DNA of 58,661 nucleotides from an uncultured Verrucomicrobia subdivision 3 bacterium (GTDB taxonomy: Bacteria; Verrucomicrobiota; Verrucomicrobiia; Limisphaerales; UBA8199), in assembly GCA_903912925.1 (NCBI GenBank), contig CAIWJG010000374.1, positions 1-58,661 of the forward strand. Reading direction: 5' to 3'. Of the stretch, positions 3,053-28,702 are shown piece by piece. The position numbers were made by a program, and so were the translations under genes. The stretch's first letter is position 1, and the number at the start of each line of letters is the position of its first letter. The notes under the pieces were generated by a model. That model was not told where the DNA came from. It ran no database searches and was given only the letters and a program-made list of their open reading frames with translations.

Positions 3053-3169
3053 GTTGGGTTAGTTGCATGGTTGCACGGTTACAAGGTTACATGGTTACAC
3101 GGTTATCAAGTGCGCTTCCCCTTGTAACCATGTAACCGTGTAACCATGCAACTCTTGTAACCATGCAAC
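3053..3169. repeat. Two convergent arrays of ~6 octamers (GTTRCANG x6, 10-nt centre, CNTGYAAC x6) in the queE/gdh divergent intergenic region
   Basis: 3062-3110 reads GTTGCATG GTTGCACG GTTACAAG GTTACATG GTTACACG GTTATCAAG. 3121-3169 reads CTTGTAAC CATGTAAC CGTGTAAC CATGCAAC t CTTGTAAC CATGCAAC. This is a large imperfect inverted repeat made of tandem 8-mers. Confidence 0.85.
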
Positions 3170-3219
3170 TCACTTCCCGCACTCTCTTTTCTCTTTACCA
3201 AATCCCGGCCACTGACCCT

Positions 3220-9600: not shown

Positions 9601-9630
9601 AATGAATCTCTCAGCATGCCTGCAGTTCAT
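6604..9630 (-). CDS. Glycoside hydrolase family 2 protein with a long C-terminal extension
   Basis: 1008-aa ORF with signal peptide '[12 protein letters not shown]'. The GH2 sugar-binding domain is 'GVAWYWREF...[35 protein letters not shown]'. The TIM-barrel acid/base region is '[16 protein letters not shown]'. Confidence 0.8.
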   Translation of the reverse strand: [1008 protein letters not shown]

Positions 9631-10095: not shown

Positions 10096-10150
10096 TCCCT
10101 TAATGGTACCTTGATAGTACCTTGATAGTCCCTTAATAGTCCCATAATAC
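10096..10150. repeat. 11-bp tandem repeat x5 in a ~700-bp less GC-rich intergenic region
   Basis: TCCCTTAATGG TACCTTGATAG TACCTTGATAG TCCCTTAATAG TCCCATAATAC. The period is about one helical turn. It lies between the P1 stop (10326) and the GH2 start (9630). Confidence 0.85.
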
Positions 10151-10325: not shown

Positions 10326-12587
10326 TCAGGGGCTGGTAGATGTGCCTGGCGGGTGGGAGGAAGGGGCCGGAGCGGCAAGCGCGGCGTCCAGGTTCTTGCG
10401 GGCCTCCGCATAATCAGGCTTGAGTCTCAGGGCCTCCTGAAACTCCCGGATCGCCTCCCCGGTGCGTCCTTGCTTGTAAAGAGCGCTGCCCAGGTAATTG
10501 TGGGCCTCGGGGTAGCCGGGCCTCGCTTTCAGGGCTGCCTCAAAATGACGAACTGCCTCGGCCGTTTCGCCTCTCAGGCCGAGGGCAAGACCGAGGTTGA
10601 ACTGGGCCTCGGCATAATCCAATTTCAACCGGACCGCTTCCTGGAATTGGCGGATCGCCTCGTCCATTTGGCCCTTCCTGCCGAGGGCGATACCCAGCTC
10701 GTTGTGGGCCTCGGCGTAATCCGGTTTCAAGCGGATGGCCTCCTCCAATTGGCGGATGGCCTCCTCCATCTGGCCTTTCCTGTTGAGGACAATACCGAGG
10801 CCGTAGTGGGCGCCGACTTGATTTGGTTTCAAGCGGATAGCTTCCCGGAATTCGCGAATTGCCTCGTCCACCTGGCCGTTCTTGTTGAGGGCAATGCCGA
10901 GGTTGCAGTAGGCGCTGGAGTAACGCGGTTTCAAGCGGATGGCCTCCTCGAATTGGCGGATCGCCCCATCCATCTGGCCCTTCTGATCGAGCGCGATGCC
11001 AAGGCCATTGTGCGCGCCGTCATTGTTCTCGGTTACAGCGAGCGCATGTCGGAACAGGACCTCACTGTCGTGCCAATAGCCGATCTGTTGCCGCGTCATT
11101 GCCAGGCAGGCGAAGACCGCCACCCCGCCGGCCACCGATAGGAGGATGGGCGTGGAACGTGAAGCGTGGAGCGTGGAGCGTGCAAGCGCGTGTCCTACGC
11201 TCCCACGCTCCTCACGCTCCTCACGCTCCACGCCCCCTGCGGCCTTCCCCTGCATCAGTGCATACGCGCCCCAGACGGCGAGGATCACCACCCCCAGTGA
11301 CGGAAGATAAGTATAGCGATCTGCCATCGCGTGGCTGCCGGTCTGGATTATTTGGCTAACGGGCACCAGGGTCCCGCAATACCACAGCCAGCCCATCAGC
11401 AAGCAGGGATACCGCCGCCGCGCCGCCCAAAACAGCACCGAAATGCCCAGGATCACCGCCCCGGCCAGCAGCACCTTCTCCAATGGCCATTGCCCGGGGT
11501 GCGGATACACCACCGCCAGCTCCGCGGGCCAGAACAGCTTCCCCAAATAGCGGCCATAAGAAATCAGCGCGTTCCCGGCGCGCGCGCCCAAAGGCAGGCT
11601 TTCCCCCGCGTCCAACGCGCCGGTGTGCCGCTGCACCACGAAGGTCACCACGCTCGCCAGCGCCACGAGGAAAAAGAACGGGATCTTCTCGAAGAGCAAT
11701 GGAAGGTGAAACGTGAAACGTGAAATGGGTTGCGTGCCGGTGCCCGCTTCATTCTGCTTTCTGCATTCTGCATTCTGCATTCTTCGTAGCGGCCAATAAT
11801 CCAGTAGCAACATCACGAACGGCAACGTCACCAGCATCGGCTTGCTCATCAAGCCCAGGGCGAGGAAGCACAAGGATAGGAGATAGAAGATGCCGGTGTG
11901 AAACGTGAAACGTGAAACGTGAAACGTGAAACGGGTTGCGGGTTGCGTGTCGGTGGCCGCTTCATTCTGCATTCTGCCTTCTGCATTCTGCATTCTCCGT
12001 TGCGCGTAGCGGACGTAAGCGATTAAGGAAAGCAGTCCGAAGAACCCGCTGAGCACATCCTTCCGTTCGGACACCCAGGCCACCGATTCCACATGCAGCG
12101 GGTGCCACCCAAATAGCGCCGCCGCCAATACGCTCCGCCAAAGCGCTCCGGTAAGACCCCACAGAAACAGAAAGAATAGCATCGTGTTGACCGCGTGCAG
12201 CAGCACACTGGTCAGGTGATGTCCCCAGGGGTTCAAGCCAAACAGTTGGCAGTCCGCCATGTGCGACAAAACCGTCACCGGATGCCAAATGCAGTTTACC
12301 GGGGTGAGCAACGCCCACTTCACGCTTTCCCAGGTCAATCCCTTTTGGACCTGAGCATTTGCGGTGACGTGCAGATCGTCATCGTAGTTGACAAAGTCAC
12401 CGCGCGTCGCCGGCCAATAAATGGCAATTGTCACCAGCAACAGCAGTGCGGCAATCAGCCACAGCGGGATGCGCGGGGAATGGGAGTGAGGGGAGTGAGG
12501 GGCGGTATGGGGTGCGGCTTGAAACGTGAAACGTGAGGTCCGACCTTGGACCTCGGACTTCGGACTTTTGCCTTCTGCCTTCTTCAT
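10326..12587 (-). CDS. P1: TMTC-like GT-C membrane domain + ~8 TPR protein (putative protein O-glycosyltransferase)
   Basis: 753 aa. First-loop acidic motif 'FVNYDDDLHV'; 'WHPLHVESVAWVSERKDVLSGFFGLLSLIAY' is a DUF1736/TMTC-type block. C-terminal TPRs read 'AHNGLGIALDQKGQMDGAIRQFEEAIRLKP...'. The start lies 6 nt after the P2 stop. Confidence 0.75.
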   Translation of the reverse strand: MKKAEGKSPKSEVQGRTSRFTFQAAPHTAPHSPHSHSPRIPLWLIAALLLLVTIAIYWPATRGDFVNYDDDLHVTANAQVQKGLTWESVKWALLTPVNCIWHPVTVLSHMADCQLFGLNPWGHHLTSVLLHAVNTMLFFLFLWGLTGALWRSVLAAALFGWHPLHVESVAWVSERKDVLSGFFGLLSLIAYVRYAQRRMQNAEGRMQNEAATDTQPATRFTFHVSRFTFHTGIFYLLSLCFLALGLMSKPMLVTLPFVMLLLDYWPLRRMQNAECRKQNEAGTGTQPISRFTFHLPLLFEKIPFFFLVALASVVTFVVQRHTGALDAGESLPLGARAGNALISYGRYLGKLFWPAELAVVYPHPGQWPLEKVLLAGAVILGISVLFWAARRRYPCLLMGWLWYCGTLVPVSQIIQTGSHAMADRYTYLPSLGVVILAVWGAYALMQGKAAGGVEREEREERGSVGHALARSTLHASRSTPILLSVAGGVAVFACLAMTRQQIGYWHDSEVLFRHALAVTENNDGAHNGLGIALDQKGQMDGAIRQFEEAIRLKPRYSSAYCNLGIALNKNGQVDEAIREFREAIRLKPNQVGAHYGLGIVLNRKGQMEEAIRQLEEAIRLKPDYAEAHNELGIALGRKGQMDEAIRQFQEAVRLKLDYAEAQFNLGLALGLRGETAEAVRHFEAALKARPGYPEAHNYLGSALYKQGRTGEAIREFQEALRLKPDYAEARKNLDAALAAPAPSSHPPGTSTSP
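11148..11235 (-). repeat. In-frame imperfect palindromic insert (GGAGCGTG / CACGCTCC units) in P1
   Basis: GGGCGTGGAACGTGAAGCGTGGAGCGTGGAGCGTG-CAAGCGCGTGTCCTA-CGCTCCCACGCTCCTCACGCTCCTCACGCTCCACGCCC. It encodes 'GGVEREEREERGSVGHALARSTLHASRSTP' just before the last TM helix. Confidence 0.85.
11706..11785 (-). repeat. Heptamer cassette, P1 second loop site: (GTGAAAC)n - spacer - (TTCTGCA)n
   Basis: GTGAAAC GTGAAAC GTGAAAT GGGTTGC GTGCCGG ... TTCATTC TGCTTTC TGCATTC TGCATTC TGCATTC. It encodes 'RRMQNAECRKQNEAGTGTQPISRFTFH'. Confidence 0.9.
11898..11996 (-). repeat. Heptamer cassette, P1 first loop site
   Basis: GTGAAAC x5 (11898-11932), then GGGTTGC-type decayed units, then TTCTGCA-type units at 11961-11996. 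It encodes 'RRMQNAEGRMQNEAATDTQPATRFTFHVSRFTFH'. Confidence 0.9.
12531..12587 (-). repeat. Heptamer-built 5' end of P1
   Basis: GAAACGT x2, then CTTGGAC CTCGGAC TTCGGAC TTTTGCC TTCTGCC TTCTTCA up to the start codon. It encodes 'MKKAEGKSPKSEVQGRTSRFTF'. Confidence 0.8.
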
Positions 12588-12593
12588 TCTGCC

Positions 12594-15293
12594 TCAGCGG
12601 TTGGTGGCGGTGCCCGGAAGCCGCACAGAACCTGCGTGGGTGGCCAGCGCGGCCGCCAGGTTCGTGCGGGCATTGGCATAGTCAGGATTGAGTCTCAGGG
12701 CTTCCTGGAACTCTCGGATCGCTTCGCTCGTGCGTCCGTTCTGGCCGAGGGCAATTCCGAGGTTGTTGTGGGCGTTAGCCTGATCCGGTTTCAAGCGCAG
12801 AGCTTGCTGGAATTGGCTGATCGCCTCGTCCATCTGGCCTTTGCTCATGAACGCGGCGCCGAGGTTGTTGTGGGCGCTGGCGTAATCCGGTTTCAGGCGG
12901 ACGGCTTCCTGGTAATGGCGGATCGCTTCGTCAATCCGGCCTTTCCTGAAGAGGGCGATGCCGAGGTTGTAGTGCGCCTCCGCGTCAGCCGGTTTGAGTC
13001 GGACGGCTTCCTGGAATTCGCCTATCGCCGTGTCAACCTGGCCTTTCTTGAGGAGAGCGTGGCCAAGGTTATTGTGGGCGTCGGCGTAATCCGCTTTTAG
13101 GTGGATGGATAGCAAGTATTGGCCAATCGCCTCGTCAGTTTGGCCTCTCTGCTCGAGGGCGGCGCCAAGATTGTTGTGCCGGCTGGCGACTCCAGGCTTC
13201 AGGAGAAGCGCTTGCCGGAATTGACTGATCGCCTCGTCAATTTGGCCCTTCTTGACGAGGGCCGCGCCGAGGTTATCGCGGGCATCGGCATGTTCCGGGC
13301 TCAGGCGGAGCGCTTCCCGGTAGCGGCTCATCGCCGCATCAACCTGGCCTTCTTTGAAAAGCGCGATGCCAAGGTAGTTGTTAGCATCGGCAGAGTCGGG
13401 ATTGAGCTTCAGAGCTTCCTGGAGCTCCGGGATCGCTTCGCTGGGGTGGCCTTTCTGGCCGAGAGCAATTCCGAGGTTTCGGTGGGCATCGGCGCTATCC
13501 GGTTTCAGGCGGAGTGCTTCCCGTAATTGGCTGATCGCTGCGTCCACTTGGCCCTTCATGGCGAGGGCCTCGCCCAGGTGGTTGTGGGCATCGGCGTCCT
13601 CCGGTTTTAGGCGGAGGAATTCCTGCAAACGGTTAATCGCCTCGTCAACTTTGCCATTCTTGAGCAGCGCGAGGCCCAGGTTGTAGCGGCCGTAAATGTT
13701 ATCAGGTTTCAGGCGCAGCCCTTCCTGGAATTCGACGACCGCCTCACCGGCTTGGCCTTTTTCGACGAGGGCGATGCCGAGGTTGTTATGTGCGGCGGCA
13801 TTGTTCTCGGTGACTTCAAGCACATGGCGGAATAGGGTTTCGCTGTCCTTCCAATAACCAATCTGTTGCCGCGTCAACCCCAGGCACAGCACGATCGCCA
13901 CACCTCCTGCCACCGACAACGCCAGCACGGGATATCGCCAGCGTCGGGTCAGTTCGCAGGCGCCCCAAACCGTGATCATCAGCACCCCAACGGACGGCAA
14001 ATAAGTGAAACGATCCGCCATGAATGAAACCCAGCCCTTGGTCAAGCCAATCACCGGGATCAAGGTTCCCAAGAACCAGCACCAACCAACCAGCAGGTAA
14101 GGCCGCCGCCGCCCAAACCACAAGACGGCCAAACCCACGCCAACCAGCACCACAACCGATCCCCCCACCTCCAGCCACGACCAATGGCCGGGATTCACAT
14201 AGGGCACGGCCAGTTTGACTGGGCAGAAGGTCTTGCCCAGATAACGGGTGTAGGCCACCAACGCGTTCTCCAGCCGAAGCAGCGCCGGGGCCTCCTCAAA
14301 ACCAGCCGCTATCTGTCTCCCCCTTTCTGTCGAGTACGTGACGAAGCACGAGATCACGCTCAATGCAAAGAATGGGATCTTCTCGAAGAGCAAGGGGCGG
14401 ACGTGATGCGTGAAACCTGAAACGTGAAACGTGAAGGGTGTTGCGGGTTGCGTGTCGCTGGCTTCCACATTCTGCATTCTCTTCAGCGGCCAATAATCCA
14501 GCAGCAACATCACAAACGGCCAAGTCACGAGCGTCGCCTTGCTCATCAACCCGCAGGCGAAGAAGCACAAGGATAGGAGATAGAAGATGGAAGTTGGGAC
14601 TCGAACATCCAACATCCAACATCCAACATCGAACGCCGAACCTGGCACTACGGCCCGCGCCGCGCCCTCCGACTTCGGATTTCGGGTTTCGGGTTTCGGA
14701 TTTCCTTCGGATTTCGGGTTTCGGGTTTCGGATTTCCGCCTCCCCCTCCCTTGCGCGTAGCAGGCGTAAGCGATTAAGGAAAGCAGGCCAAAGCAGCCAC
14801 TGAGCACATCCTTCCGTTCCGTCACCCACGCCACCGACTCCACCCGCAGCGGATGCAGGGCAAACAGCGCCGCCACCACCACACTCCGCCACATCGCCCC
14901 CGTCAACCTCCGAAGCAGCAGGAACAACAACACGCCGTTGGCGGCGTGAAACGCTACATTCGTAAAGTGAAACCCCCCGGCCTTCCGGCCAAAGAGGCTC
15001 GCGTCCAACATCAACGAAAGCCAGGTCAGCGGATGCCAGTAATCCCCCTCATTCAGGCTAAACGCCCATTTCACCCCCTCCCAGTTCAAACCGCCCTGCA
15101 CGTGGGCGTTGGAGGTGACAAATTGAGGATCATCGTAGTTGATGAAATCAAAGCCCGTCACCGGCCAATACAGGACCAGCGTCACCAGCGCCAGCAAGAC
15201 GCCCATCAGCCACGCTGGTAGATGCGGCCAAGCCATCGCCGCGGTGGCTGCCCTCGTCGGGGTGGGTTCAGATTCGGTCTCTGGTTGGCGCAC
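12594..15293 (-). CDS. P2: TMTC-like GT-C membrane domain + ~13 TPR protein
   Basis: 899 aa with 'FINYDDPQFV' and 'LHPLRVESVAWVTERKDVLSGCFGLLSLIAY'. It has a long TPR domain and ends 'LPGTATNR'. Confidence 0.75.
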   Translation of the reverse strand: MRQPETESEPTPTRAATAAMAWPHLPAWLMGVLLALVTLVLYWPVTGFDFINYDDPQFVTSNAHVQGGLNWEGVKWAFSLNEGDYWHPLTWLSLMLDASLFGRKAGGFHFTNVAFHAANGVLLFLLLRRLTGAMWRSVVVAALFALHPLRVESVAWVTERKDVLSGCFGLLSLIAYACYAQGRGRRKSETRNPKSEGNPKPETRNPKSEGAARAVVPGSAFDVGCWMLDVRVPTSIFYLLSLCFFACGLMSKATLVTWPFVMLLLDYWPLKRMQNVEASDTQPATPFTFHVSGFTHHVRPLLFEKIPFFALSVISCFVTYSTERGRQIAAGFEEAPALLRLENALVAYTRYLGKTFCPVKLAVPYVNPGHWSWLEVGGSVVVLVGVGLAVLWFGRRRPYLLVGWCWFLGTLIPVIGLTKGWVSFMADRFTYLPSVGVLMITVWGACELTRRWRYPVLALSVAGGVAIVLCLGLTRQQIGYWKDSETLFRHVLEVTENNAAAHNNLGIALVEKGQAGEAVVEFQEGLRLKPDNIYGRYNLGLALLKNGKVDEAINRLQEFLRLKPEDADAHNHLGEALAMKGQVDAAISQLREALRLKPDSADAHRNLGIALGQKGHPSEAIPELQEALKLNPDSADANNYLGIALFKEGQVDAAMSRYREALRLSPEHADARDNLGAALVKKGQIDEAISQFRQALLLKPGVASRHNNLGAALEQRGQTDEAIGQYLLSIHLKADYADAHNNLGHALLKKGQVDTAIGEFQEAVRLKPADAEAHYNLGIALFRKGRIDEAIRHYQEAVRLKPDYASAHNNLGAAFMSKGQMDEAISQFQQALRLKPDQANAHNNLGIALGQNGRTSEAIREFQEALRLNPDYANARTNLAAALATHAGSVRLPGTATNR
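14403..14484 (-). repeat. Heptamer cassette, P2 second loop site (partly decayed)
   Basis: GTGATGC GTGAAAC CTGAAAC GTGAAAC GTGAAGG GTGTTGC GGGTTGC GTGTCGC ... CACATTCTGCATTCTC. It encodes 'KRMQNVEASDTQPATPFTFHVSGFTHH'. Confidence 0.85.
14603..14737 (-). repeat. Alternative heptamer cassette, P2 first loop site: ([CG]AACATC)n + (CGG[AG]TTT)n
   Basis: GAACATC CAACATC x3 GAACGCC (14603-14644). CTTCGGATTTCGGGTTTCGGGTTTCGGATTTC is duplicated in tandem (14672-14737). It encodes 'RRKSETRNPKSEGNPKPETRNPKSEG...SAFDVGCWMLDVRV'. Confidence 0.9.
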
Positions 15294-15311
15294 GGGACTC
15301 GCCAGAATAAC

Positions 15312-17519
15312 TCAGCGATTAGTGGAAACGCCGGACGGGCGGGGAGAGCCTGACTTGGCGCCAAGCGCGATGCCCAGGTTCGTACGGGCATCGGCAAAGT
15401 CAGGCCTGAGTCTCACGGCCTCCTCGAACTGCTTAATCGCATCGTCCAGTTGGCCTTTCCCGACGTAAGCGATGCCGAGGTTGTTATGAGCATCCGCGTA
15501 ATTCGTCTTCAGTTGAATGGCCGCCTTGAATCCAGCGATCGCCATCTCAATTTGGCCTTTCCCTAAGAGGGCGTTGCCGAGGTTATTGTGGGCATCCGCG
15601 TAATCGGGTTTCAGACGGACGGCTTGCTGGTATTGGCGAATCGCCTCGTTTATTTGGCCTTTCATGGCCAGGGCATTGCCAAGGTTGGAATGGAACCTGG
15701 CGTCCTCCGGTCTTAGGCGGACGGCTTCCTGAAGCTGGCGGATCGCCTCGTCGAGCCGGCCCCTCCTGCCGAGGACAACGCCGAAGTTGTTACGGGCCTC
15801 GGCATGATTCGGTTTCAGGCGGATGGCATCCTGGAAGTGGCGGATTGCCTCGTCGATTTGGCCTTTGTTGATGAGTGTGGCGCCAAGACTGTAGTAGGCC
15901 TCGGCGTAATCCGGCTGCAGGCGAATGGCTTCCTGGAACTGCCGGATCGCCTCGTCCAATTGGCCTTTCAGGTTGAGGGCGATGCCGAGGTTGTTGTGGG
16001 CGAGGGCGTAACCTGGCTCAATCCGGAGGGCTGCTTGGTATTCGCCGATCGCCTCGTCCATCTGGCCTTTCCTACCAAGCGCGTCGCCGAAAGCCGCGTG
16101 CGCGATTTGATTGTCTTTTGCGACTTCCAGCGCGTGTCCGAACAGGGCTACCCCGTCCTTCCAATAACCAATCTGTTGCCGCGTCAATGTCAGGCACAAA
16201 ACGATTGCCACCCCACTCGCCACCGACAACGCGATCACGTGATACCGCCAGCCTCGGGTTAATTCGCACACGCCCCAGACCGCCAGGATCAGCACCCCAA
16301 GCGTCGAAAGATAAGTGTAGCGATCCGCCATGGCCTGCTGGCCCACTTGCACCAAGCCAATCACCGGGACCAGCATCCCCAAAAACCAAAACCACCCCAT
16401 TAGCAAATAGGGATGCCGACGTCGCTGCATCCAGACCAGCACCGAAATCCCCAGGAGCACCCCCCCTGCCAGCAGCACCTTCCCCAGCGGCCATTGCCCG
16501 GGGTGCCAATAACAGGCCACCAAATCCACTGGGCGGAAGAGCTTCCATAGGTAGCGGCAATACGAAATCAGCGCGTTCCCCAGGCGCGCGCCCAGGGGCA
16601 GGCTGGTAACCCCCGTCATAGCGCCCCCTTGTCTCTGCACCACGAAGGTCACAGCGCTCATCAAGGCCACGAGCACGAAGAACGGGATCTTCTCGAAGAT
16701 CAAAGGGAGGAGCGCGGGGCGTGGAACGTGAACCGTGCTGCGTGGCGCTTGTTGCGTGCCGGTGGCCTCGGCATTCTGCATTCTTCGTAGCGGCCAGTAA
16801 TCCAGCAGCAACATCACCAGCGGCCAAGTCACCAGCATCGGCTTGCTCATCAAGCCCAAGGCGAGGAAGCACAAGGAGAGAAGATAGAAGAGGGAAGAGG
16901 GAAGAGGGGAGAGCGGGAGCGGACCACGAGCTTCCGGCTGCTGGCTTCCGCTTTCTGCATTCTGCATTCTCCGCTGCGCGTAGCGGACGTAAGCAATCAG
17001 CGCAAGCAGACCGAAGAAGCTGCTAAGCACATCCTTGCGTTCGGACACCCAAGCCACCGATTCGACGCGCAGCGGGTGCAGGGCGAACAAGGCCGCCACC
17101 AATAGACTCCGCCAGGGCGCGCCGGTCAACAGGTACAGCAACACGAAGACCAGGCCCGCGTTGAGCCCGTGCAGCAACACGCTGCTCAAATGATGTCCCC
17201 ACGGCTTCAAACCGAACATTTGACAGTCCAGCATGTGCGACATCCAGGTAAGCGGATGCCAGTTGGCGGCGTAGTCACTCCGAAATGCCCACCGGACATT
17301 TTCCAGGGTCAGTCCGCTGGTTACGTGCGTGTTATCCAGCACGTACATATAGTCATCATAGGTGACGAAATCACATCGCGTCGCCGACCAGTAAACGGCA
17401 ATCGTCACCAACACCAGAAATACGGCCATCAGCCACGCCGGGAAATGCCGCCGAGTCATCACATGGGGTGCTTCCGTCGCGGGATGGGTTTCGGCTTGGG
17501 TCGATGGTCGGGGCGGCAT
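15312..17519 (-). CDS. P3: TMTC-like GT-C membrane domain + ~8 TPR protein
   Basis: 735 aa with 'FVTYDDYMYV' and 'LHPLRVESVAWVSERKDVLSSFFGLLALIAY'. It ends 'PSGVSTNR'. A GGGGAG Shine-Dalgarno-like site lies upstream of the ATG. Confidence 0.75.
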   Translation of the reverse strand: MPPRPSTQAETHPATEAPHVMTRRHFPAWLMAVFLVLVTIAVYWSATRCDFVTYDDYMYVLDNTHVTSGLTLENVRWAFRSDYAANWHPLTWMSHMLDCQMFGLKPWGHHLSSVLLHGLNAGLVFVLLYLLTGAPWRSLLVAALFALHPLRVESVAWVSERKDVLSSFFGLLALIAYVRYAQRRMQNAESGSQQPEARGPLPLSPLPSSLFYLLSLCFLALGLMSKPMLVTWPLVMLLLDYWPLRRMQNAEATGTQQAPRSTVHVPRPALLPLIFEKIPFFVLVALMSAVTFVVQRQGGAMTGVTSLPLGARLGNALISYCRYLWKLFRPVDLVACYWHPGQWPLGKVLLAGGVLLGISVLVWMQRRRHPYLLMGWFWFLGMLVPVIGLVQVGQQAMADRYTYLSTLGVLILAVWGVCELTRGWRYHVIALSVASGVAIVLCLTLTRQQIGYWKDGVALFGHALEVAKDNQIAHAAFGDALGRKGQMDEAIGEYQAALRIEPGYALAHNNLGIALNLKGQLDEAIRQFQEAIRLQPDYAEAYYSLGATLINKGQIDEAIRHFQDAIRLKPNHAEARNNFGVVLGRRGRLDEAIRQLQEAVRLRPEDARFHSNLGNALAMKGQINEAIRQYQQAVRLKPDYADAHNNLGNALLGKGQIEMAIAGFKAAIQLKTNYADAHNNLGIAYVGKGQLDDAIKQFEEAVRLRPDFADARTNLGIALGAKSGSPRPSGVSTNR
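16891..16971 (-). repeat. Heptamer cassette, P3 first loop site: (AGGGAAG)n ... (TTCTGCA)n
   Basis: AGGGAAG AGGGAAG AGGGGAG AGCGGGA (16891-16918) and TTCTGCATTCTGCATTCTC (16952-16971). It encodes 'RRMQNAESGSQQPEARGPLPLSPLPSS'. Confidence 0.8.
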
Positions 17520-17577
17520 ACAACTCCCCTAACTATTGCTCAACCGCAGGACAAGGTCGGGACTTTAGCATGGCGAT

Positions 17578-17607
17578 TCTATAGCTGGAAAGCCGGTGCG
17601 TTGACAA
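17578..17607 (-). promoter_or_regulatory. Candidate sigma70-like promoter upstream of P3 in the 114-nt P4-P3 gap
   Basis: The minus strand reads AGCTTGTCAACGC-...-TATAGA: -35 TTGTCA, 18-nt spacer, -10 TATAGA. The 13-mer GCGTTGACAAGCT (plus strand, 17598-17610) recurs at 30633-30645 in front of P9. Confidence 0.35.
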
Positions 17608-17633
17608 GCTTGATCGTGCTGCCACCGGCACGG

Positions 17634-19922
17634 TCACTTCGCAGCATCGGTCTTGGCGGCGAGCACAGCGTTCAGGTTCTTGCGGGCCTCGGCATAGTCA
17701 GGCTTCAGTTTCAGAGCCTCCTGAAACTCGCGGATCGCCTCCCTGGGGCGGCCTTGCTGGTACCAGGCGCTGCCCAGGTAATTGTGCGCCTCGGGGTAGT
17801 CGGGTTTCGCTTTTAGGGCCGCCTCAAACTGGCGGATGGCCTCGGTCCTTTGGCCTTTCAGGCCGAAGGCGAGGCCGAGGTTGAAGTGCGCCTCGGCGTA
17901 ACCCGGTTTCAGCCGGGTGGCTTCCTGTAAATGGCGGAGCGCCTCTTCCATTTGACCTTTTCTGACAAAGGCGATGCCAAGGTCGTTATGAGCCTCGGCA
18001 TAATCGGGTTTGAGCTCGATGGCTTCCTGGAATTCGCGGATCGCTTCATCCATTTGGCCTTTCCGGCTGAGGACGATGCCGAGGTTGTAGCGAGCCTCGA
18101 TGTAAGCCGGGTTCAGGCGGACGGCTTCCTGGAATTGGCGCAGCGCACCCTCCATTTGGCCTGCTTTGTCGAGGGCGATGCCGAGATTGTAGTGGGCGTT
18201 GGCATGATCCGGCTTGAGCCGGAGGGCTTCCCGGAATTCGCGGATCGCCTCATCGGTTTGGCCTCGCTTGGCGAGGGCGACCCCGAGGTTGCTGTGAGCG
18301 TCGGCGTAACCTGGTCTCAGGCGGATGGCTGCCTGGAATTGCTGAATCGCTTCGTCGGTTTGGCCCTTCTTGTCGAGCGCGTCGCCGAGGACTTTGTACG
18401 CGATTTGATTGTTCCCCGTGACCTCGATCGCATGCCGGAACAGGGTTTCCCCGTCCTTCCAATGCCCGAGCTGCTGCCGTGTCAGCGCCAGGCACGCGAA
18501 GACCGCCACCCCGCCGGCCACCGATAGGAGGATGGGCGTGGAGCATGAAGCGTGGAGCGTGGAGCGTGCAAGCGCGTGTCCTACGCTCCCACGCTCCTCA
18601 CGCTCCTCACGCTCCACGCCCCCTGCGGCCTTCCCCTGCATCAGTTCATACACGCCCCAGACGACGAGGATCAGCACCCCGAGCGACGGAAGATAAGTAT
18701 ATCGATCCGCCATCGCCTGGCCGCCGGCTTGCACCAGCCCAATCACCGGTACCAGCGTCCCAACAAACCACAGCCACCCCATCAGCAAATAGGGATGCCG
18801 CCACCGCCGCACCCAAACCAGCACCGAAAGGCCCAGGATCAACCCGCCCGCCAGCAGCACCTTAACCAGCGGCCATTGGTCAGGGCGCGGATAGTAAACC
18901 GCCAGATCCATGGGCCAGAACAGTTTCCCCAGATAGCAGCCGTACGAAATCAGCGCGTTGGCGACGCGCGCGCCGACGGACAGCCTTTCAGCCCCCATCA
19001 CAGCGCCTGCCTGCTTCTGCACCAGGAAGGTCACGACGCTCACCGCCGCGGCAAGGGCAAAGAAGGGGAGTTTTTCGAGGAGCAGGGAAACGTGAGGCGT
19101 GAAACGTGAAACGTGAAACGTGAAACGTGAAACGTGTTGCGTGTCGGTGGCCTCTTCATTCTGCATTCTCCGTAGCGGCCAGTAATCCAGCAGCAACATC
19201 ACGCACGGCCACGTCACCAGCATCGGTTTGCTCAGCAAGCCGAGGGCGAAGAAGCACAAGGATAGGAGATAGAAGTTGCCGGTGTGAAACGTGAAACGTG
19301 TTGCGTGTTGTGTGTCGGTGGCCTCTTCATTCTGCATTCTGCATTCTGAATTCTGCATTCTCCGTTGCGCGTAGCAGGCGTAAGCGATTAAGGAAAGCAG
19401 GCCAAAGCAGCCACTGAGCACATCCTTGCGTTCCGACACCCAGGCCACCGACTCGACGCGCAGCGGGTGAACTGCGAACAACGCCGCCACCCACAGGCTC
19501 CGCCACGTCGCTCCCGTCAACAGTTGCAGCAACGCCAGGACCAGCCCGGCATTGAGCGCGTGCAGCACCACGTTGGTCAAATGATGCCCCCAGGGCTGCA
19601 AACCGAACAGTTGGCAGTCGGCCATGTGGGACCACACCGTTACGGGGTGCCAATTGGCGGCCACCGGGTTCAAACAAGCCCATTTTATGCTCTCCCAGGT
19701 CAGCCCGTTTTGGACGTGAACATTCGAGGTAACGTAGGAATCATCATCATAGTTGACGAAGTTACCTCGCGTCGCCGGCCAGAACGTGGCAATCGTCACG
19801 AGCACCAGCAATGCGGCCAGCAGCCACACCGGGGGAGGGGAGATTTGCGATTTGCGATTCGCGACTGCACCCTGGTGCGTGTTGCATGCCGTCTTCTGCA
19901 TTCTGCATTCTGCATTCTTCAT
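17634..19922 (-). CDS. P4: TMTC-like GT-C membrane domain + ~8 TPR protein
   Basis: 762 aa with 'FVNYDDDSYV' and 'VHPLRVESVAWVSERKDVLSGCFGLLSLIAY'. The start lies 5 nt after the P5 stop. Confidence 0.75.
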   Translation of the reverse strand: MKNAECRMQKTACNTHQGAVANRKSQISPPPVWLLAALLVLVTIATFWPATRGNFVNYDDDSYVTSNVHVQNGLTWESIKWACLNPVAANWHPVTVWSHMADCQLFGLQPWGHHLTNVVLHALNAGLVLALLQLLTGATWRSLWVAALFAVHPLRVESVAWVSERKDVLSGCFGLLSLIAYACYAQRRMQNSECRMQNEEATDTQHATRFTFHTGNFYLLSLCFFALGLLSKPMLVTWPCVMLLLDYWPLRRMQNEEATDTQHVSRFTFHVSRFTPHVSLLLEKLPFFALAAAVSVVTFLVQKQAGAVMGAERLSVGARVANALISYGCYLGKLFWPMDLAVYYPRPDQWPLVKVLLAGGLILGLSVLVWVRRWRHPYLLMGWLWFVGTLVPVIGLVQAGGQAMADRYTYLPSLGVLILVVWGVYELMQGKAAGGVEREEREERGSVGHALARSTLHASCSTPILLSVAGGVAVFACLALTRQQLGHWKDGETLFRHAIEVTGNNQIAYKVLGDALDKKGQTDEAIQQFQAAIRLRPGYADAHSNLGVALAKRGQTDEAIREFREALRLKPDHANAHYNLGIALDKAGQMEGALRQFQEAVRLNPAYIEARYNLGIVLSRKGQMDEAIREFQEAIELKPDYAEAHNDLGIAFVRKGQMEEALRHLQEATRLKPGYAEAHFNLGLAFGLKGQRTEAIRQFEAALKAKPDYPEAHNYLGSAWYQQGRPREAIREFQEALKLKPDYAEARKNLNAVLAAKTDAAK
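18534..18621 (-). repeat. In-frame palindromic insert in P4 (same element as in P1)
   Basis: GGGCGTGGAGCATGAAGCGTGGAGCGTGGAGCGTGCAAGCGCGTGTCCTACGCTCCCACGCTCCTCACGCTCCTCACGCTCCACGCCC. It has the same flanks as the P1 copy. Confidence 0.85.
19085..19170 (-). repeat. Heptamer cassette, P4 second loop site
   Basis: GGGAAAC GTGAGGC then GTGAAAC x5 (19099-19133), then GTGTTGC GTGTCGG ... TTCATTCTGCATTCTCC. It encodes 'RRMQNEEATDTQHVSRFTFHVSRFTPHVS'. Confidence 0.9.
19284..19372 (-). repeat. Heptamer cassette, P4 first loop site
   Basis: GTGAAAC x2, GTGTTGC, GTGTTGT, GTGTCGG ... TTCATTC TGCATTC TGCATTC TGAATTC TGCATTC. It encodes 'RRMQNSECRMQNEEATDTQHATRFTFH'. Confidence 0.9.
19842..19922 (-). repeat. 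Heptamer-built 5' end of P4
   Basis: GATTTGC GATTTGC GATTCGC (19842-19862) and a (TTCTGCA)n tract running into the start codon (19893-19927). It encodes 'MKNAECRMQKT...ANRKSQI'. Confidence 0.9.
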
Positions 19923-19927
19923 TCTGA

Positions 19928-22609
19928 CTAGCGGTTAGTGGCGGCTCCGGGCGGCGGTAAAGCAGCGGCCTGAGTGGCGAGCGCGGCTTCCAGGTTGGTG
20001 CGGGCATTGGCGTAGTCAGGATTGAGTCTCAGGGCTTCCCGGAACTCGCGGATCGCTTCGCTGGTGCGGCCGTTCTGGCCGAGGGCAATTCCGAGGTTGT
20101 TGTGGGGGTTGGCCTGATCCGGTTTCAGGCGGAGCGCGTGCTGGAATTGGCCGATCGCCTCGTCAATTTGGCCTTTGCTCATGAAGGCGGCCCCGAGGTT
20201 ATTGTAGGCACTGGCGTAATCCGGTTTGAGGCGGAGGGCTTCCTGGTAATGGCGGATCGCTTCGTCAATCTGGCCCTTCCTGAAGAGGGCGATGCCGAGG
20301 TTGTAGTGGGCCTCAGCGTCAGCCGGCTTGAGACGGACAGTTTCCTGGAATTCGCCTATCACCGTGTCGATTTGGCCTTTCTTGAGGAGGGCGTGCCCGA
20401 GGTTGTTGTGGGCGTCAGCGTAATCCACTTTCAGGTGGATGGCCTGTTGGTATTGGACAATCGCCTCGTCAATTTGGCCTTTCTGCTCGAGGGCGGCGCC
20501 AAGATTGTTGTGCATGTTGGCATCCATCGGCTTCAGGCGGCCGGCTTCCCGGAATTGACTGATCGCCTCATCAACTTGGCCCTTCTTGATGAGGGCCGCG
20601 CCGAGGTTGTCGCGGACGCCGGCATGATGCGGTCTCAGGCGAAGGGCCTGCTGGTAGTGGCTGATCGCCTCATCAACCTGGCCTTGTTTGAAAAGGGCGA
20701 CGCCGAGGTGGTTGTGGGCCTCGGCGTGATCCGGCTTCAGGCGGAGCGCTTCCCGAAACTCCGGGCTCGCCTCACTGGTGCGGCCGTCCTGGCCCAGGGC
20801 AATTCCGAGGTTGTTGTGGGCATCGGCATTATCCGGTTTAAGGCGGAGGGCTTCCCGTAGTTGGCTGATCGCTGCGCCGACCTGGCCTTTCATGGCGAGT
20901 GCCTCACCGAGGTGGTTGTGGGCATCGGCGTCATCCGGTTTCAGGCGGAGAGTTTCCTTCAATTGGTGAATCGCCTCGTCGCTTTGACCTTGCTTTGCGA
21001 AGACGGCGCCGAGGTTGTAGTGGTTCGCCGCATCGTCAGGTTGCAACACCACGGCCTTTTGCAAATGCTCGACGGCCTCGTCAACCTGCCCGCGATCGAG
21101 AAGCAAGCTGCCGAGCCTCGAGTGATATTCCGCATGATAGATAGCGCTCGCCAAGAGGTTAAAGGCCAGCGAGATAGCCAGGAGCAGGCCCCAGGCACAT
21201 CGGGCCACCCACCGCCAAGCCAACCGGCTGACCAGAGTGCGCTCCAAGCCGAGGATGCCAACGACGGCCAGCAGTACCAACGCGGGACAGAAGTCCACCT
21301 CATAGCGAAGACTCCCGTTCAAGAAGAGGCCAAGCACCAAGGCGCGAGCCGCGAAGAGCAAAGCGACGGCCACCAGAAACCCGCGCAGAATGCGGCGCCC
21401 GTCTGCCGAGCGATCTCGCCAGGCCAGTGGCGCCGCTAGCGCTAGCCAAACTAAAGGATTGCTGGTCAGGACGCCAAAGGGATGCTCACAGTTCCCATAG
21501 CCGTCCGGCAGGGGTGGCAACTTGATGTCCTGAACGAAAGGAAAATGAGCACTCCAGCGGGCCGGCGCCAGGAAGTAAACCCAGAAGTTGGCTCCCAGGA
21601 AGTGATAACTCCAGGCGTGAGCAAACCGGACCGAGGCTAACAGATAGGGTTGCCCGAATTCCAACGGATTCTCAAATCGCAGGGTGTTGTAGAGCATGAG
21701 TCCCAGCCCGATGCACGTGATCGGACCAGTCGCCGCCAGCAAGGAAACCCAAACCCGGTGAAACGTGAAACGTGAAACGTGAAACGTGAAGCCAGACCCG
21801 ACGCAGCGCGGCGAGCCCTCCCGCCAGGCCAGCGCCACCGGCAGCAACAGAATCACGGCCCCAAATAGCACGTTCGGTCGCGCCCCAATCGCCAACCCGT
21901 ATGCCAGACTGGCCGCGGCCAACCATCGCCCCCGTTGATTGGGGCGGTGGCACGCCCCCCAAAGCGCCAGCAAGGCCAGCATCGTCAACGCATAGCAGCA
22001 AGTGATCGCCACCTCGTAAACCTCAGCCCTTGGCAGAATGATCGGCGTGAACCCCGCCAGCCCCAGCGCCAGCGTGCCCGCCGCCACCACCGCGAGGCCG
22101 ATTCCCGGGAAGTAGCGGCACCGCATCAACCAGAGCAAGCCGACGCTGGCTAAAAAACCTACAGCGCAAAAGACCACCACGGCAGCTTTATGCCCGAGGT
22201 AATGGCCCGTCAGGGCCGCATAGGGCCAAAACAGCACCAGGGCAGGCGTAATCCCATAATAGAGATATAGTTTGCCGTGATAGTAACTCAGATCCCATAA
22301 CGGATGCCCGTCAATCAGCAGGTAGTCGGCGTTGGCTATCGGATCATAGGGATCGGCCAACCGAGCAAGTCCGGGAGGCACCTCTGTTTTCAAATCGAGC
22401 TGGCCAGCGCGAAACCCCCGCACCAATAGGTTGTAGTAGGCGTCCTCGGCACGCATGGTACGCATTCCCAGGAATCCCGGTCTGGCGCTCCAAGCGAAAA
22501 AGCCGATCACCACCGCGCAAATTGCACCTATAGTCACCCACGGTGCCCAGCGCATGCTGCGACCGGATGCTCCCACTTGGTTTTGACTGTTTGGCACGTC
22601 ACTGTTCAT
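19928..22609 (-). CDS. P5: different polytopic membrane domain (GT-C/ArnT-like candidate, family unassigned) + ~12 TPR protein
   Basis: 893 aa. The N-terminal ~480 aa ('EDAYYNLLVRGFRAGQLDL...ADPYDPIANADYLLIDGHPLWDLSYYHGKLYLYYGITPAL') lack the YDD / HPLRVES blocks of the other eight paralogs. The TPR domain is collinear and nearly identical to that of P2. It ends 'PPGAATNR'. Confidence 0.7.
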   Translation of the reverse strand: MNSDVPNSQNQVGASGRSMRWAPWVTIGAICAVVIGFFAWSARPGFLGMRTMRAEDAYYNLLVRGFRAGQLDLKTEVPPGLARLADPYDPIANADYLLIDGHPLWDLSYYHGKLYLYYGITPALVLFWPYAALTGHYLGHKAAVVVFCAVGFLASVGLLWLMRCRYFPGIGLAVVAAGTLALGLAGFTPIILPRAEVYEVAITCCYALTMLALLALWGACHRPNQRGRWLAAASLAYGLAIGARPNVLFGAVILLLPVALAWREGSPRCVGSGFTFHVSRFTFHRVWVSLLAATGPITCIGLGLMLYNTLRFENPLEFGQPYLLASVRFAHAWSYHFLGANFWVYFLAPARWSAHFPFVQDIKLPPLPDGYGNCEHPFGVLTSNPLVWLALAAPLAWRDRSADGRRILRGFLVAVALLFAARALVLGLFLNGSLRYEVDFCPALVLLAVVGILGLERTLVSRLAWRWVARCAWGLLLAISLAFNLLASAIYHAEYHSRLGSLLLDRGQVDEAVEHLQKAVVLQPDDAANHYNLGAVFAKQGQSDEAIHQLKETLRLKPDDADAHNHLGEALAMKGQVGAAISQLREALRLKPDNADAHNNLGIALGQDGRTSEASPEFREALRLKPDHAEAHNHLGVALFKQGQVDEAISHYQQALRLRPHHAGVRDNLGAALIKKGQVDEAISQFREAGRLKPMDANMHNNLGAALEQKGQIDEAIVQYQQAIHLKVDYADAHNNLGHALLKKGQIDTVIGEFQETVRLKPADAEAHYNLGIALFRKGQIDEAIRHYQEALRLKPDYASAYNNLGAAFMSKGQIDEAIGQFQHALRLKPDQANPHNNLGIALGQNGRTSEAIREFREALRLNPDYANARTNLEAALATQAAALPPPGAATNR
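21743..21792 (-). repeat. Heptamer tract inside the unrelated membrane domain of P5
   Basis: GGAAACC CAAACCC G then GTGAAAC x4 (21758-21785) and GTGAAGC. It encodes 'SGFTFHVSRFTFHRVWV'. Confidence 0.9.
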
Positions 22610-22655
22610 GCTTTAGATCTTGGTCGCGGCTTGGCTCATAGAACTCCCAACCAAC

Positions 22656-24581: not shown

Positions 24582-24586
24582 TCTGA

Positions 24587-26563: not shown

Positions 26564-26575
26564 TCTTCATTCTGA

Positions 26576-28681: not shown

Positions 28682-28702
28682 AGAGCAGCTCGGTAAATGA
28701 AC

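What the first reader, a model, noticed from the sequence alone, without database searches (positions are those of the whole stretch)
11148..11235. Palindromic repeat element sitting in-frame at one conserved site in five of nine paralogs (presence/absence and two different cores)
Seen: P1 (11148-11235), P4 (18534-18621), P7 (25103-25169) and P8 (27194-27260) carry an imperfect inverted repeat built from GGAGCGTG / CACGCTCC(T) units: GGGCGTGGAGCGTG...CAAGCGCGTG...CACGCTCCTCACGCTCCACGCCC. It lies between conserved flanks (coding strand CTGATGCAGGGGAAGGCC ... ATCCTCCTATCGGTGG) and encodes '...LMQGKAAGG.EREEREERGSVGHALARST..PILLSV'. P6 has a different inverted repeat made of GAAATCC/GGATTTC heptamers (23164-23258) at exactly the same site, with the same 'LMQGKA' flank. 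P2, P3 and P9 have no insert there and read 'ELTR[RG]WRY..' straight into the last TM helix before the TPR domain. Established precedent: Rickettsia palindromic elements (RPE) reside in-frame inside ORFs. Inference: this is either a small hairpin-forming insertion element with a shared target or flank and exchangeable core, tolerated in a loop, or a selected mRNA hairpin that pauses translation between the membrane domain and the TPR domain.
Basis: partly seen in the sequence, partly recalled or inferred. Interest (0 to 1): 0.65.

Follow-up and report, generated by a model that had tools for sequence, protein, structure and literature searches.

The report
Repeat-armed hairpin element inside genes
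A hairpin-forming DNA repeat whose arms are runs of a 7-base unit sits in frame in a floppy loop of five neighbouring membrane-protein genes. It belongs to a widespread, apparently undescribed class of repeats in Verrucomicrobiota, Planctomycetota and Acidobacteriota that mostly lie just after genes but also turn up inside unrelated conserved genes.

Summary
P1, P4, P7 and P8 carry a GAGCGTG/CACGCTC-armed palindrome, and P6 carries a GAAATCC/GGATTTC one. All sit at one codon-exact site, which is empty in P2, P3 and P9 and in 56 of 105 scorable homologues.

It is not a private oddity of this gene family. The same hairpin type occurs more than 100 times in metagenome contigs, with unrelated flanks and varied loops. 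In seven cases checked with Pfam it lies in frame inside conserved genes: a COX1-type oxidase, an RND pump, CstA, sulfite reductase, a histidine kinase, MutS and GlnE. Most other copies lie 30-40 nt downstream of stop codons. The P6-type hairpin occurs more than 116 times in Verrucomicrobiota, Planctomycetota and Acidobacteriota genomes. Same-genome pairs are about 92% identical with unrelated flanks.

Best reading: a REP/RPE-like passenger repeat tolerated in a disordered, probably cytoplasmic loop of a GT-C-type glycosyltransferase with a TPR domain. Arm length changes by slippage in frame-keeping steps (9 and 21 nt). The core is exchanged between closely related gene copies, probably by homologous recombination rather than by a shared insertion target.

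A selected translation-pausing hairpin is not supported. Phase variation is not supported but could not be properly tested. How the elements move is unknown. Verdict: new variant of a known kind.

The parts
11148..11236 (-). P1 type-A hairpin (long form). Arms are GAGCGTG-type units (9-nt period in the 5' arm, 7-nt in the 3' arm). Loop AGGACACGCGCTTGC at 11182-11196.
   Evidence: (-71.5 kcal/mol, z -7.1)
11130..11255 (-). P1 whole variable cassette (126 nt, aa 445-486), from ATGCAGGGGAAGGCC to just before GGCGGGGTGGCGG. Encodes MQGKAAGGVEREEREERGSVGHALARSTLHASRSTPILLSVA.
18534..18622 (-). P4 type-A hairpin (long form). Cassette is 18516-18641.
   Evidence: (-72.1 kcal/mol, z -7.2)
25103..25169 (-). 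P7 type-A hairpin (short form: the 3' arm lacks 21 nt, i.e. 3 heptamers). Cassette is 25085-25189.
   Evidence: (z -3.2)
27194..27260 (-). P8 type-A hairpin (short form). Cassette is 27176-27280.
   Evidence: (z -3.5)
23158..23258 (-). P6 type-B cassette. Arms are GAAATCC/GGATTTC units (inverted repeat at 23164-23243). Loop GGGCGGTCCCGCAGGCCTTATTTC at 23185-23208. Same 5' flank ATGCAGGGGAAGGCC at 23244-23258. Encodes MQGKAEIRNPKAEGNPKGGPAGLISGFGLRISC.
   Evidence: (z -1.7)
13917..13949 (-). P2 empty site (TRRWRYPVLAL), the short basic loop that is the ancestral state.
16227..16259 (-). P3 empty site.
29210..29242 (-). P9 empty site.
10326..30550 (-). Tandem array of nine paralogs: P1 10326-12587, P2 12594-15293, P3 15312-17519, P4 17634-19922, P5 19928-22609, P6 22656-24581, P7 24587-26563, P8 26576-28681, P9 28703-30550. 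Each has a multi-helix membrane N-domain (GT-C-like fold) and C-terminal TPR repeats. P5 has a different N-domain.
11695..12000 (-). Example (P1 loops 2 and 1) of the other in-frame heptamer arrays present in every paralog: (AGAATGC)n ... (CGTTTCA)n, encoding RRMQNAECRMQNE..TRFTFHVSRFTFH. These are not hairpins (z about 0).
3062..3171 (.). Intergenic hairpin of the same architecture with an 8-nt unit: (GGTTACAN)n - loop - (NTGTAACC)n.
   Evidence: (DNA fold -36.6 kcal/mol, z -8.5)

Best explanation
The insert is one copy of a dispersed class of palindromic repeats. Each arm is a short tandem array of a 7-nt unit, and the loop varies. I call these heptamer-armed hairpins.

In related bacteria most copies lie just downstream of genes, as REP-type or terminator-like hairpins do. 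A minority sit in frame inside genes. In this gene family one such element came to occupy the short basic loop between the last two membrane helices of a GT-C-type glycosyltransferase-like domain. This loop is probably cytoplasmic and comes just before the periplasmic TPR domain.

The element survives there for three reasons (inferred):
- Its units contain no stop codon in any frame.
- Its length is a multiple of three.
- The loop is disordered.

After that it evolves as DNA, not as protein:
- Arm units are gained and lost by replication slippage. Only frame-keeping steps are seen (9 nt = EER, 21 nt = LHASRST).
- The two arms drift apart independently.
- The whole cassette, with either core (GAGCGTG type or GAAATCC type), is passed between closely related gene copies. 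The likely route is homologous recombination (gene conversion) through the identical flanking sequence. That is why different cores sit at exactly one site.

Shown: dispersal of the class, in-frame copies in unrelated genes, an ancestral empty state, the step sizes, the core swap with identical flanks, and the disordered loop.

Inferred: that the first arrival was an insertion or ectopic exchange, that the loop is cytoplasmic, that the insert is neutral, and that the core swap happened by gene conversion. The enzyme or process that copies these elements is unknown.
For: The ancestral state is empty. Of 105 scorable homologues, 56 have an invariant 57-aa segment without insert. Filled alleles occur only among closer relatives.

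Type A is dispersed. The pattern GGAGCGTG..GGAGCGT..loop..ACGCTCCACGC gave 107 metagenome stretches and 4 genome hits. Only about 14-20 are family genes, and the rest have unrelated flanks and several loop types. In lake metagenomes holding this sequence, contig word depth over one arm is about 1500, against 40-90 in the flanks, and loose ends carry unrelated flanks.

Copies lie in frame in unrelated genes, confirmed by Pfam: COX1, AcrB/RND (two internal copies), CstA, NIR_SIR, a histidine kinase, MutS and GlnE. Third-codon-position G+C (GC3) is mostly about 0.6-0.9 on either side.

Type B gave more than 116 genome stretches in Verrucomicrobiota, Planctomycetota, Acidobacteriota and others. 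Most are intergenic.

Copying within one genome is shown. Pairs from the same MAG are 92% identical over 133 nt or 202 nt with unrelated flanks.

Intergenic copies favour gene 3' ends. Convergent versus divergent neighbours were 23:4 (type A) and 15:5 (type B), with a median of 30-42 nt from the stop codon.

Slippage is visible. Insert lengths are 75, 78, 82, 85, 88, 95 and 98 aa. Arm unit counts are uncorrelated.

The core swap is documented. P7 and P0003 are 92.5% identical with identical flanks but core A versus core B. Insert state is patchy on the N-domain tree.

The loop is disordered. The AF2 model has pLDDT about 60 at site C and below 50 at the other heptamer-coded segments, against 85-97 in the helices. 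The N-domain model matches only GT-C enzymes.

The same pattern appears in another gene. One MutS position is empty in most Verrucomicrobiota orthologues and filled by varied inserts in others.
Against: - No target-site duplication, terminal inverted repeat or clean empty/filled junction exists at this site. The filled allele replaces 33-39 nt, so insertion is inferred rather than seen.
- The exact family loop (AGGRCMCGMGCTTGC) was found only in family genes. A local origin of this particular copy is therefore not excluded.
- The rest of the source genome is not available. Other copies are shown in metagenomes and in related genomes, not in this genome outside the window.
- No transposase or other copying mechanism was identified.
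- Neutrality is inferred from variability, not measured.
- The genic and intergenic counts rest on a crude gene caller of my own. Only seven genic cases were verified with Pfam.
Confidence: 0.62

Rival explanations
1. Local origin. The palindrome arose in situ in this gene family by slippage of a proto-repeat plus template switching (inverted duplication), independently of the similar hairpins elsewhere. The class would then be a recurrent mutational product of these genomes' replication machinery, not a family of copied elements.
For: - No target duplication or clean junction at the site.
- The family loop sequence was found only in family genes.
- Dozens of different heptamer units and unit lengths of 6-11 nt build the same architecture in related genomes. 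This fits a process better than a single element.
- Published work attributes heptamer over-representation in bacteria to polymerase slippage (PMC4692102).
- Hairpins with identical arms have very diverse loops.
Against: - Same-genome pairs are 92% identical over 133-202 nt, loop and outer sequence included, with unrelated flanks. This shows real copying for at least some families.
- Type-A copies in different contexts share loop types (GGAGCGATGGTTGG; GAGGGCATCG[CT]AGC[AG]CTTG[CT]C) and, in one sub-family, outer termini.
- The family loop resembles that recurrent loop.
Confidence: 0.15
2. Contingency locus. The heptamer arrays, being 7 nt and not a multiple of 3, serve as slippage-prone switches that turn individual paralogs of a surface-glycosylation family on and off (phase variation).
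For: - There are at least four heptamer arrays per gene in nine tandem paralogs.
- Copy number differs between close relatives.
- Two family genes in related genomes break frame at a heptamer array. One more does so in a long-read MAG.
- Heptanucleotide repeats drive phase variation in other bacteria (PMC8262952 and PMC13001214, listed).
Against: - All nine paralogs in the window are intact.
- Only 2 of about 200 aligned N-domain segments break frame at an array.
- Arrays are short (3-5 units) and imperfect.
- The same arrays occur in housekeeping genes such as MutS, GlnE and a COX1-type oxidase, where switching would be harmful.
- It could not be tested on reads. Only assembled contigs were available, and the tool refuses (CATTCTG)n stretches.
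Confidence: 0.08
3. Selected nucleic-acid structure. The mRNA (or DNA) hairpin is kept because it pauses translation or transcription between the membrane domain and the TPR domain, or controls mRNA decay.
For: - P1 and P4 have a very stable hairpin (-72 kcal/mol, z -7).
- The position is just before the last membrane helix.
- P1 and P4 orthologues from many lakes keep it.
Against: - It is absent in 3 of 8 paralogs and in most homologues.
- P7 and P8 lost three units of one arm without compensation. The P6 core folds no better than 11 of 200 shuffles.
- Arm lengths vary independently.
- A loop change in L124/L129 breaks a pair without compensation.
- Rfam gives no match.
Confidence: 0.07
4. 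Selected protein feature. The encoded charged, disordered peptide (EREEREER..., or EIRNPK...GFGLRIS) has a function in the cytoplasmic loop, for example a regulatory or interaction segment, as proposed for tandem repeats in Borg elements.
For: - The inserts are disordered and charged.
- They are kept in frame across many relatives.
- There is a precedent for repeats creating new disordered regions (PMC9879509).
Against: - Three unrelated peptide types occupy the same site.
- The peptide is dictated by the nucleotide palindrome, and the two arms give unrelated peptides.
- The same DNA element gives the same peptides in unrelated proteins and is mostly non-coding elsewhere.
Confidence: 0.06

Closest known systems
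Rickettsia palindromic elements (RPE; Ogata et al. 2000, as summarised in PMC10969869)
   Same: Palindromic repeats that occur both between genes and in frame inside unrelated, functional genes. They add a peptide segment at a tolerated surface or loop position, show presence/absence between relatives, and have no known transposase.
   Different: - RPEs are about 100-150 bp non-repetitive palindromes in ten sequence families, confined to Rickettsia.
- Here the arms are tandem arrays of a 7-nt unit, and the arm unit defines the type while the loop varies.
- Length changes by unit slippage.
- The hosts are free-living Verrucomicrobiota, Planctomycetota and Acidobacteriota.
- Most copies are intergenic at gene 3' ends.
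- No sequence comparison with RPEs was made.
REP/BIME-type repetitive extragenic palindromes (PMC3733652, listed)
   Same: Abundant short imperfect palindromes concentrated downstream of genes. Convergent neighbours outnumber divergent ones, and copies lie tens of nt from the stop codon. There are several copies per genome with unrelated flanks.
   Different: - REPs are 20-40 bp, carry a GTAG or CGTC tag, are linked to RAYT transposases, and are extragenic by definition.
- Here the elements are 55-230 nt with repeat-built arms, and a sizeable minority are in frame in genes.
- Neither the tag nor a RAYT link was tested.
Heptameric simple-sequence repeats: cyanobacterial STRR and Xanthomonas/Nostoc G-rich heptamers (PMC4692102)
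   Same: Tandem 7-nt units over-represented in particular lineages. They show length and sequence variation between close relatives, occasional inverted pairs that can form stem-loops, and a preference for positions near gene ends.
   Different: - The published arrays are described as under-represented in coding regions and are discussed as G-quadruplex formers.
- Here the typical form is an inverted pair of arrays (a hairpin).
- There are many unit sequences, and frequent in-frame residence in genes.
MITEs (review PMC10969869)
   Same: Small non-autonomous repeats that can create in-frame fusions. Some sub-families here have conserved outer termini.
   Different: No target-site duplication was found at the site studied. 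No parent insertion sequence was identified. The arms are internally repetitive.

Membership tests
Rickettsia palindromic elements (RPE) | Palindromic sequence able to form a long hairpin | tested here: met
   P1 and P4 fold at -72 kcal/mol with 0 of 200 shuffles as good. P7 and P8 are weaker, and P6 is marginal.
Rickettsia palindromic elements (RPE) | Copies inserted in frame in unrelated protein-coding genes as well as between genes | tested here: met
   Searches show copies in COX1, RND, CstA, NIR_SIR, a histidine kinase, MutS and GlnE. One search shows the intergenic majority. This was shown for the class in metagenomes, not for this genome.
Rickettsia palindromic elements (RPE) | Sequence membership of one of the RPE families; Rickettsia host | tested here: not met
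   The host is a freshwater Verrucomicrobiota lineage. The arms are tandem heptamers, unlike the roughly 150-bp RPEs described in PMC10969869. No direct alignment to RPE sequences was made.
REP / BIME | High-copy short palindromes in extragenic positions, mainly after genes | tested here: inconclusive
   The 3'-end bias is shown, and there are multiple copies per MAG. However, elements are longer (55-230 nt), many are genic, and copy number per genome was not measured.
REP / BIME | GTAG or CGTC tetranucleotide tag; association with a RAYT (HUH Y1) transposase | not tested
   GTAG and CGTC strings occur in some copies, but no systematic test was done. No transposase search was run.
MITE | Terminal inverted repeats flanked by a target-site duplication; a related autonomous insertion sequence | tested here: not met
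   Comparing empty and filled alleles (P0061 vs P0058; P2/P3/P9 vs P1/P4/P7/P8) shows replacement of 33-39 nt and no duplication. No parent IS was looked for.
Phase-variable simple-sequence contingency locus | Tandem unit not divisible by 3 inside a reading frame, with copy-number polymorphism | tested here: met
Phase-variable simple-sequence contingency locus | Alleles that differ by single units and switch the frame on and off within a population | tested here: inconclusive
   All nine paralogs are intact. Only 2 of about 200 aligned N-domain segments break frame at an array.
GT-C-fold glycosyltransferase with TPR domain (PMT/TMTC-like), the host gene | GT-C membrane fold | tested here: met
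   The AF2 N-domain model has pLDDT 79 and pTM 0.83. The top Foldseek hits are almost all GT-C enzymes: AglB, PglB, AftA, Pmt4, STT3, DPY19 and Pmt1/2. TM-scores are modest (0.28-0.48, best 0.48) with E from 1e-3 to 3e-1.
GT-C-fold glycosyltransferase with TPR domain (PMT/TMTC-like), the host gene | Acidic motif in the first extracytoplasmic loop; C-terminal TPR repeats | tested here: met
   An invariant DD (P7 residues 83-84) follows the first helix in 74 sequences. TPR families score strongly.
GT-C-fold glycosyltransferase with TPR domain (PMT/TMTC-like), the host gene | Match to a curated PMT/GT39/DUF1736 sequence family | tested here: not met
   Pfam, NCBIfam and PDB sequence searches return only TPR or nothing for the N-domain. 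JGI names homologues 'protein O-mannosyl-transferase'.

The most novel reading that the evidence does not exclude
Heptamer-armed hairpins are a previously undescribed, phylum-spanning superfamily of self-copying palindromic elements in Verrucomicrobiota, Planctomycetota and Acidobacteriota. They normally act as 3'-end hairpins. Their arms are modular, so the unit can be exchanged while the site and flanks stay. They repeatedly seed new disordered loops in conserved proteins, an RPE-like process operating on a much larger scale in free-living bacteria. A structure-directed mechanism that remains to be found would drive it, such as an HUH/RAYT-type enzyme or template switching at hairpins.
Probability: 0.35. 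Interest if true: 0.75.

Novelty: new variant of a known kind. Interest (0 to 1): 0.58.

Why it matters
In-frame 'selfish' palindromes in functional genes have been treated as a peculiarity of Rickettsia. Here the same behaviour appears in abundant free-living soil and freshwater bacteria, with a different element design: tandem 7-nt units forming the stem.

Three consequences follow if this holds:
- It gives a concrete source of new disordered loops in conserved proteins.
- It explains many odd low-complexity peptides in proteins predicted from metagenome-assembled genomes of these phyla, such as ERGSVGAW/TLHAPRS, EIRNPK/GFGLRIS and MQNAECR/RFTFHVS.
- It warns that such segments, and start codons called inside (AGAATGC)n arrays, are DNA-repeat products rather than protein motifs.

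It also offers a tractable case of core exchange at a fixed site for studying how such repeats move.

Tried and rejected
- **Exact 36-nt core in species-representative genomes:** no hit. The source genome is not in that collection, and the best family relatives are only 59% identical.
- **Hidden G-U-paired RNA hairpins in the other heptamer arrays** (MQNAECR/RFTFHVS type): rejected. Folding z-scores are about 0 on both strands.
- **Stop-codon-free units as a special adaptation:** rejected. 67% of random heptamers at 62% G+C are stop-free on both strands.
- **Laying runs on the whole paralog block:** Only Logan contigs were available, so population-level +/-7-nt variation could not be measured.
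- **Rfam:** no family match in the window.
- **Fold search with the full-length model:** swamped by TPR hits. Repeated with the N-domain alone.
- **Sequence searches for the N-domain:** Pfam, NCBIfam and PDB gave nothing beyond TPR.
- **DNA for P0014 (closest empty allele to P7) and P0023 (third core type):** not retrievable. The third core is therefore known only as protein.
- **Literature searches for heptamer-armed hairpins or in-frame repeats in these phyla:** nothing found.
- **A single ancestral insertion followed only by vertical descent:** rejected, because insert state and core type are patchy on the N-domain tree.


Full report
**What is in the window.** The minus strand carries nine tandem paralogs between 10326 and 30550, followed by an 8869-aa ORF. 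Eight paralogs share a multi-helix N-domain and C-terminal TPR repeats. P5 has a different N-domain. Sequence libraries recognise only the TPR part. JGI names homologues 'protein O-mannosyl-transferase'. An AlphaFold model of the N-domain alone (pLDDT 79, pTM 0.83) matches GT-C glycosyltransferases almost exclusively among its confident hits: AglB, PglB, AftA, Pmt4, STT3 and DPY19, with best TM-scores of 0.40-0.48. An invariant DD follows the first helix. Relatives come from Verrucomicrobiota (Limisphaerales, 'subdivision 3') metagenome-assembled genomes. The sequence itself is present in many lake and freshwater metagenomes.

**Checking the observation.** The inverted repeats are at the stated coordinates, and so are the flanks and peptides.
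- P1 and P4 fold at -72 kcal/mol (z about -7, 0 of 200 shuffles as good).
- P7 and P8 fold at about -46 kcal/mol (z -3.2 and -3.5).
- P6 is marginal at -42 kcal/mol (z -1.7).

The unit is 7 nt (GAGCGTG/CACGCTC), and one arm has drifted to a 9-nt period. P7 and P8 lack exactly three heptamers (21 nt, 'LHASRST') of one arm. P2, P3 and P9 have a short basic loop, ELTR[RG]WRY.

**The site in relatives.** Of the 120 best homologues, 105 could be scored at this site:
- 56 have an invariant 57-aa empty segment.
- 31 have core A, with segment lengths of 75, 78, 82, 85, 88, 95 or 98 aa. These differ in steps of 3 and 7 aa.
- 15 have core B, 72-111 aa.
- 2 have a third heptamer-built core, 'EVRGQRT..RVQSQI'.
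- One further homologue (P0001, the near-identical P7 orthologue) has a type-A insert with one substitution that my filter missed.

The empty loop is therefore ancestral, and the segment is not an old protein feature. Filled alleles always begin L[MVT]QGK[AS].

At DNA level the filled allele replaces 33-39 nt of the empty one, and there is no target duplication. P7 (core A) and P0003 (core B) are 92.5% identical over the whole gene. Their flanks are identical on both sides of the swapped core...ATGCAGGGGAAGGCC | core | GGCGGGGTGGCGGTCTTCGC.... On a tree of the N-domain, closest relatives differ in state: P7(A) pairs with P0014 (none), P4(A) with P0003 (B), and P8(A) with P0033 (B). Both cores coexist in this one genome. 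The simplest account of 'different cores at one site' is therefore homologous exchange between related gene copies, not a shared insertion target. The GAAGGCC in the common flank is itself a variant unit of the type-B arm and recurs inside the P6 and P0058 arms. This suggests that the type-B element was there first. That step is inference.

**The element is not private to this family.** In lake metagenomes that hold this sequence, contig word depth rises from 40-90 in the flanks to about 1500 over one arm. Loose ends there carry unrelated sequence.

A loop-agnostic pattern for the type-A hairpin found 4 stretches in species-representative genomes (Chthoniobacteraceae and Verrucomicrobia MAGs, and one MAG labelled Thermomicrobiales) and 107 in metagenome contigs. 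Only about 14-20 of these are family genes, and all of those carry the family loop and flanks. The rest have other flanks and several loop types, some recurring in different contexts.

Seven hosts were verified with Pfam. In each the hairpin lies in frame with coding sequence on both sides:
- a COX1-family oxidase subunit
- an AcrB/RND pump, with two internal copies
- CstA
- a nitrite/sulfite reductase
- a hybrid histidine kinase, inside the ATPase domain
- MutS, between domains II and III
- GlnE

At that MutS position most Verrucomicrobiota orthologues are empty (a 20-aa segment), while others carry varied inserts that extend the segment to 22-87 aa.

Most of these are intergenic.

Within single MAGs, pairs of type-B-armed elements are 92% identical over 133 nt (Acidobacteria) or 202 nt (Verrucomicrobiia) with unrelated flanks. 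This shows copying.

In loci related to the window, hairpins of the same design occur with many different units of 6-11 nt. One is an intergenic 8-mer version in the window at 3062-3171.

**Where the class sits.** I used a crude gene caller of my own. Intergenic copies lie between convergent genes far more often than between divergent ones: 23:4 for type A and 15:5 for type B. The median distance to the nearest stop codon is 30-42 nt. That is the placement typical of REP-type or terminator-like hairpins. Genic copies look like strays that survive where a loop tolerates them.

**Why it is tolerated here.** In the AlphaFold model of P7 (pLDDT 80.7), confidence drops at the heptamer-coded segments: the N-tail 1-42, loop 1 around 222-240, loop 2 around 279-308, and site C around 460-480. 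The surrounding helices score 85-97. Site C lies between the last two membrane helices. If the TPR domain is periplasmic, as the C-terminal domains of GT-C enzymes are, this loop is cytoplasmic. The basic residues of the empty allele agree with that. This topology is inferred, not tested. The units have no stop codon in any frame, but 67% of random heptamers of this composition share that property, so it is not a special adaptation.

**Against a selected structure or a switch.** The two arms vary independently, with unit counts such as 4/1, 5/3, 6/5 and 7/4. Three units were lost from one arm in P7 and P8 without compensation. Stability ranges from -72 to -42 kcal/mol. Most homologues lack the insert. 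Rfam has no match.

For phase variation, all nine paralogs are intact, and only 2 of about 200 aligned N-domain segments break frame at an array. The same arrays sit in housekeeping genes. A proper test needs raw reads, which were not available.

**Comparison with what is known.** The behaviour matches Rickettsia palindromic elements (PMC10969869). The element design does not match: the arms are tandem heptamers, the loops vary, the hosts are different, and most copies are intergenic. Placement resembles REP elements, but length, genic copies and the untested RAYT link differ. Heptameric repeats are known to be over-represented in some bacteria and occasionally form inverted pairs, but they are described as avoiding coding regions (PMC4692102). 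I found no description of this class in these phyla in the held literature.

**Verdict.** This is a new variant of a known kind. How the elements are copied, and whether this genome carries copies outside the window, remain open.

Noticed in passing
window 11695-12000, 14395-14745, 16700-16975, 19080-19366, 23700-24025, 25630-25935, 27730-28075, 29685-30027: Every paralog carries in-frame heptamer arrays in two more loops. Most are (AGAATGC)n...(CGTTTCA)n, encoding RRMQNAECRMQNE..TRFTFHVSRFTFH. P2, P8 and P9 instead have (GAAAYCC)n and/or (GGATGTT)n. These are not hairpins (fold z about 0). The composite also occurs outside the family, in L306 next to a prepilin-like ORF.
   Followed up: partly
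window 12475-12594, 19835-19930, 24495-24590, 26405-26580, 28545-28665: The called N-termini (MKNAECRMQK...NRKSQI) are themselves heptamer arrays lying directly after the stop of the upstream paralog. (AGAATGC)n contains ATG in every unit. The annotated starts may therefore be artefacts, and these arrays may be intergenic 3'-end elements.
   Followed up: no
window 3062-3171: Intergenic hairpin of the same architecture built from an 8-nt unit, (GGTTACAN)n / (NTGTAACC)n. The DNA fold is -36.6 kcal/mol, z -8.5. It overlaps the called TTG start of ORF 3106-4380.
   Followed up: partly
window 10086-10149: Tandem repeat of period 11/22 (TAGTACCTTAA-like) in the 700-nt gap between ORF 6604-9630 and P1.
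   Followed up: no
window 19928-22609 (P5) vs 12594-15293 (P2): P5 has an unrelated membrane N-domain, but its long TPR domain is highly similar to that of P2 (seen by eye in the translations, not computed). This suggests domain shuffling or gene conversion of the TPR part. P5 also carries an in-frame (GTGAAAC)4.7 array at 21758-21790.
   Followed up: no
window 30744-57353: A giant 8869-aa ORF directly upstream of the paralog array, with internal 255-273-nt tandem repeats (for example 40133-41142 and 42373-43138). It may be a substrate or partner of the glycosyltransferase-like paralogs.
   Followed up: no
L097 (metagenome contig WNGA01010377.1): One RND efflux-pump gene carries two internal type-A hairpin inserts. 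It also has related heptamer-coded peptides at both termini (PSERAPRSDAPTF..., ...GRESVEASEQRF).
   Followed up: partly
P0121-P0240 (MutS homologues), position after 'LLRG': One position between MutS domains II and III is a hot spot in Verrucomicrobiota. It is empty in most orthologues and holds varied low-complexity inserts (segment extended from 20 aa to 22-87 aa) in others. Some inserts contain the recurrent 'LSPSDGERG'-type peptide, which looks like another translated repeat.
   Followed up: partly
L198/L208 and L205/L224 (Acidobacteria gp5 MAGs): A sharply bounded palindromic element of about 133 nt (TTTTGAAATTGGACGAATCCTGCATCTCAAATCCGAAATCCGAAAT...). (GAAATCC)n forms its inner stem and it has a second small palindrome in the loop. 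There are several copies per MAG.
   Followed up: partly
L026 14306-14496; L030 17370-17541: Long pure heptamer arrays of 16-27 units, (GACGTTG)n and (TGAACCY)n, in related Verrucomicrobiales MAGs. These are much longer than the arrays in the window.
   Followed up: no
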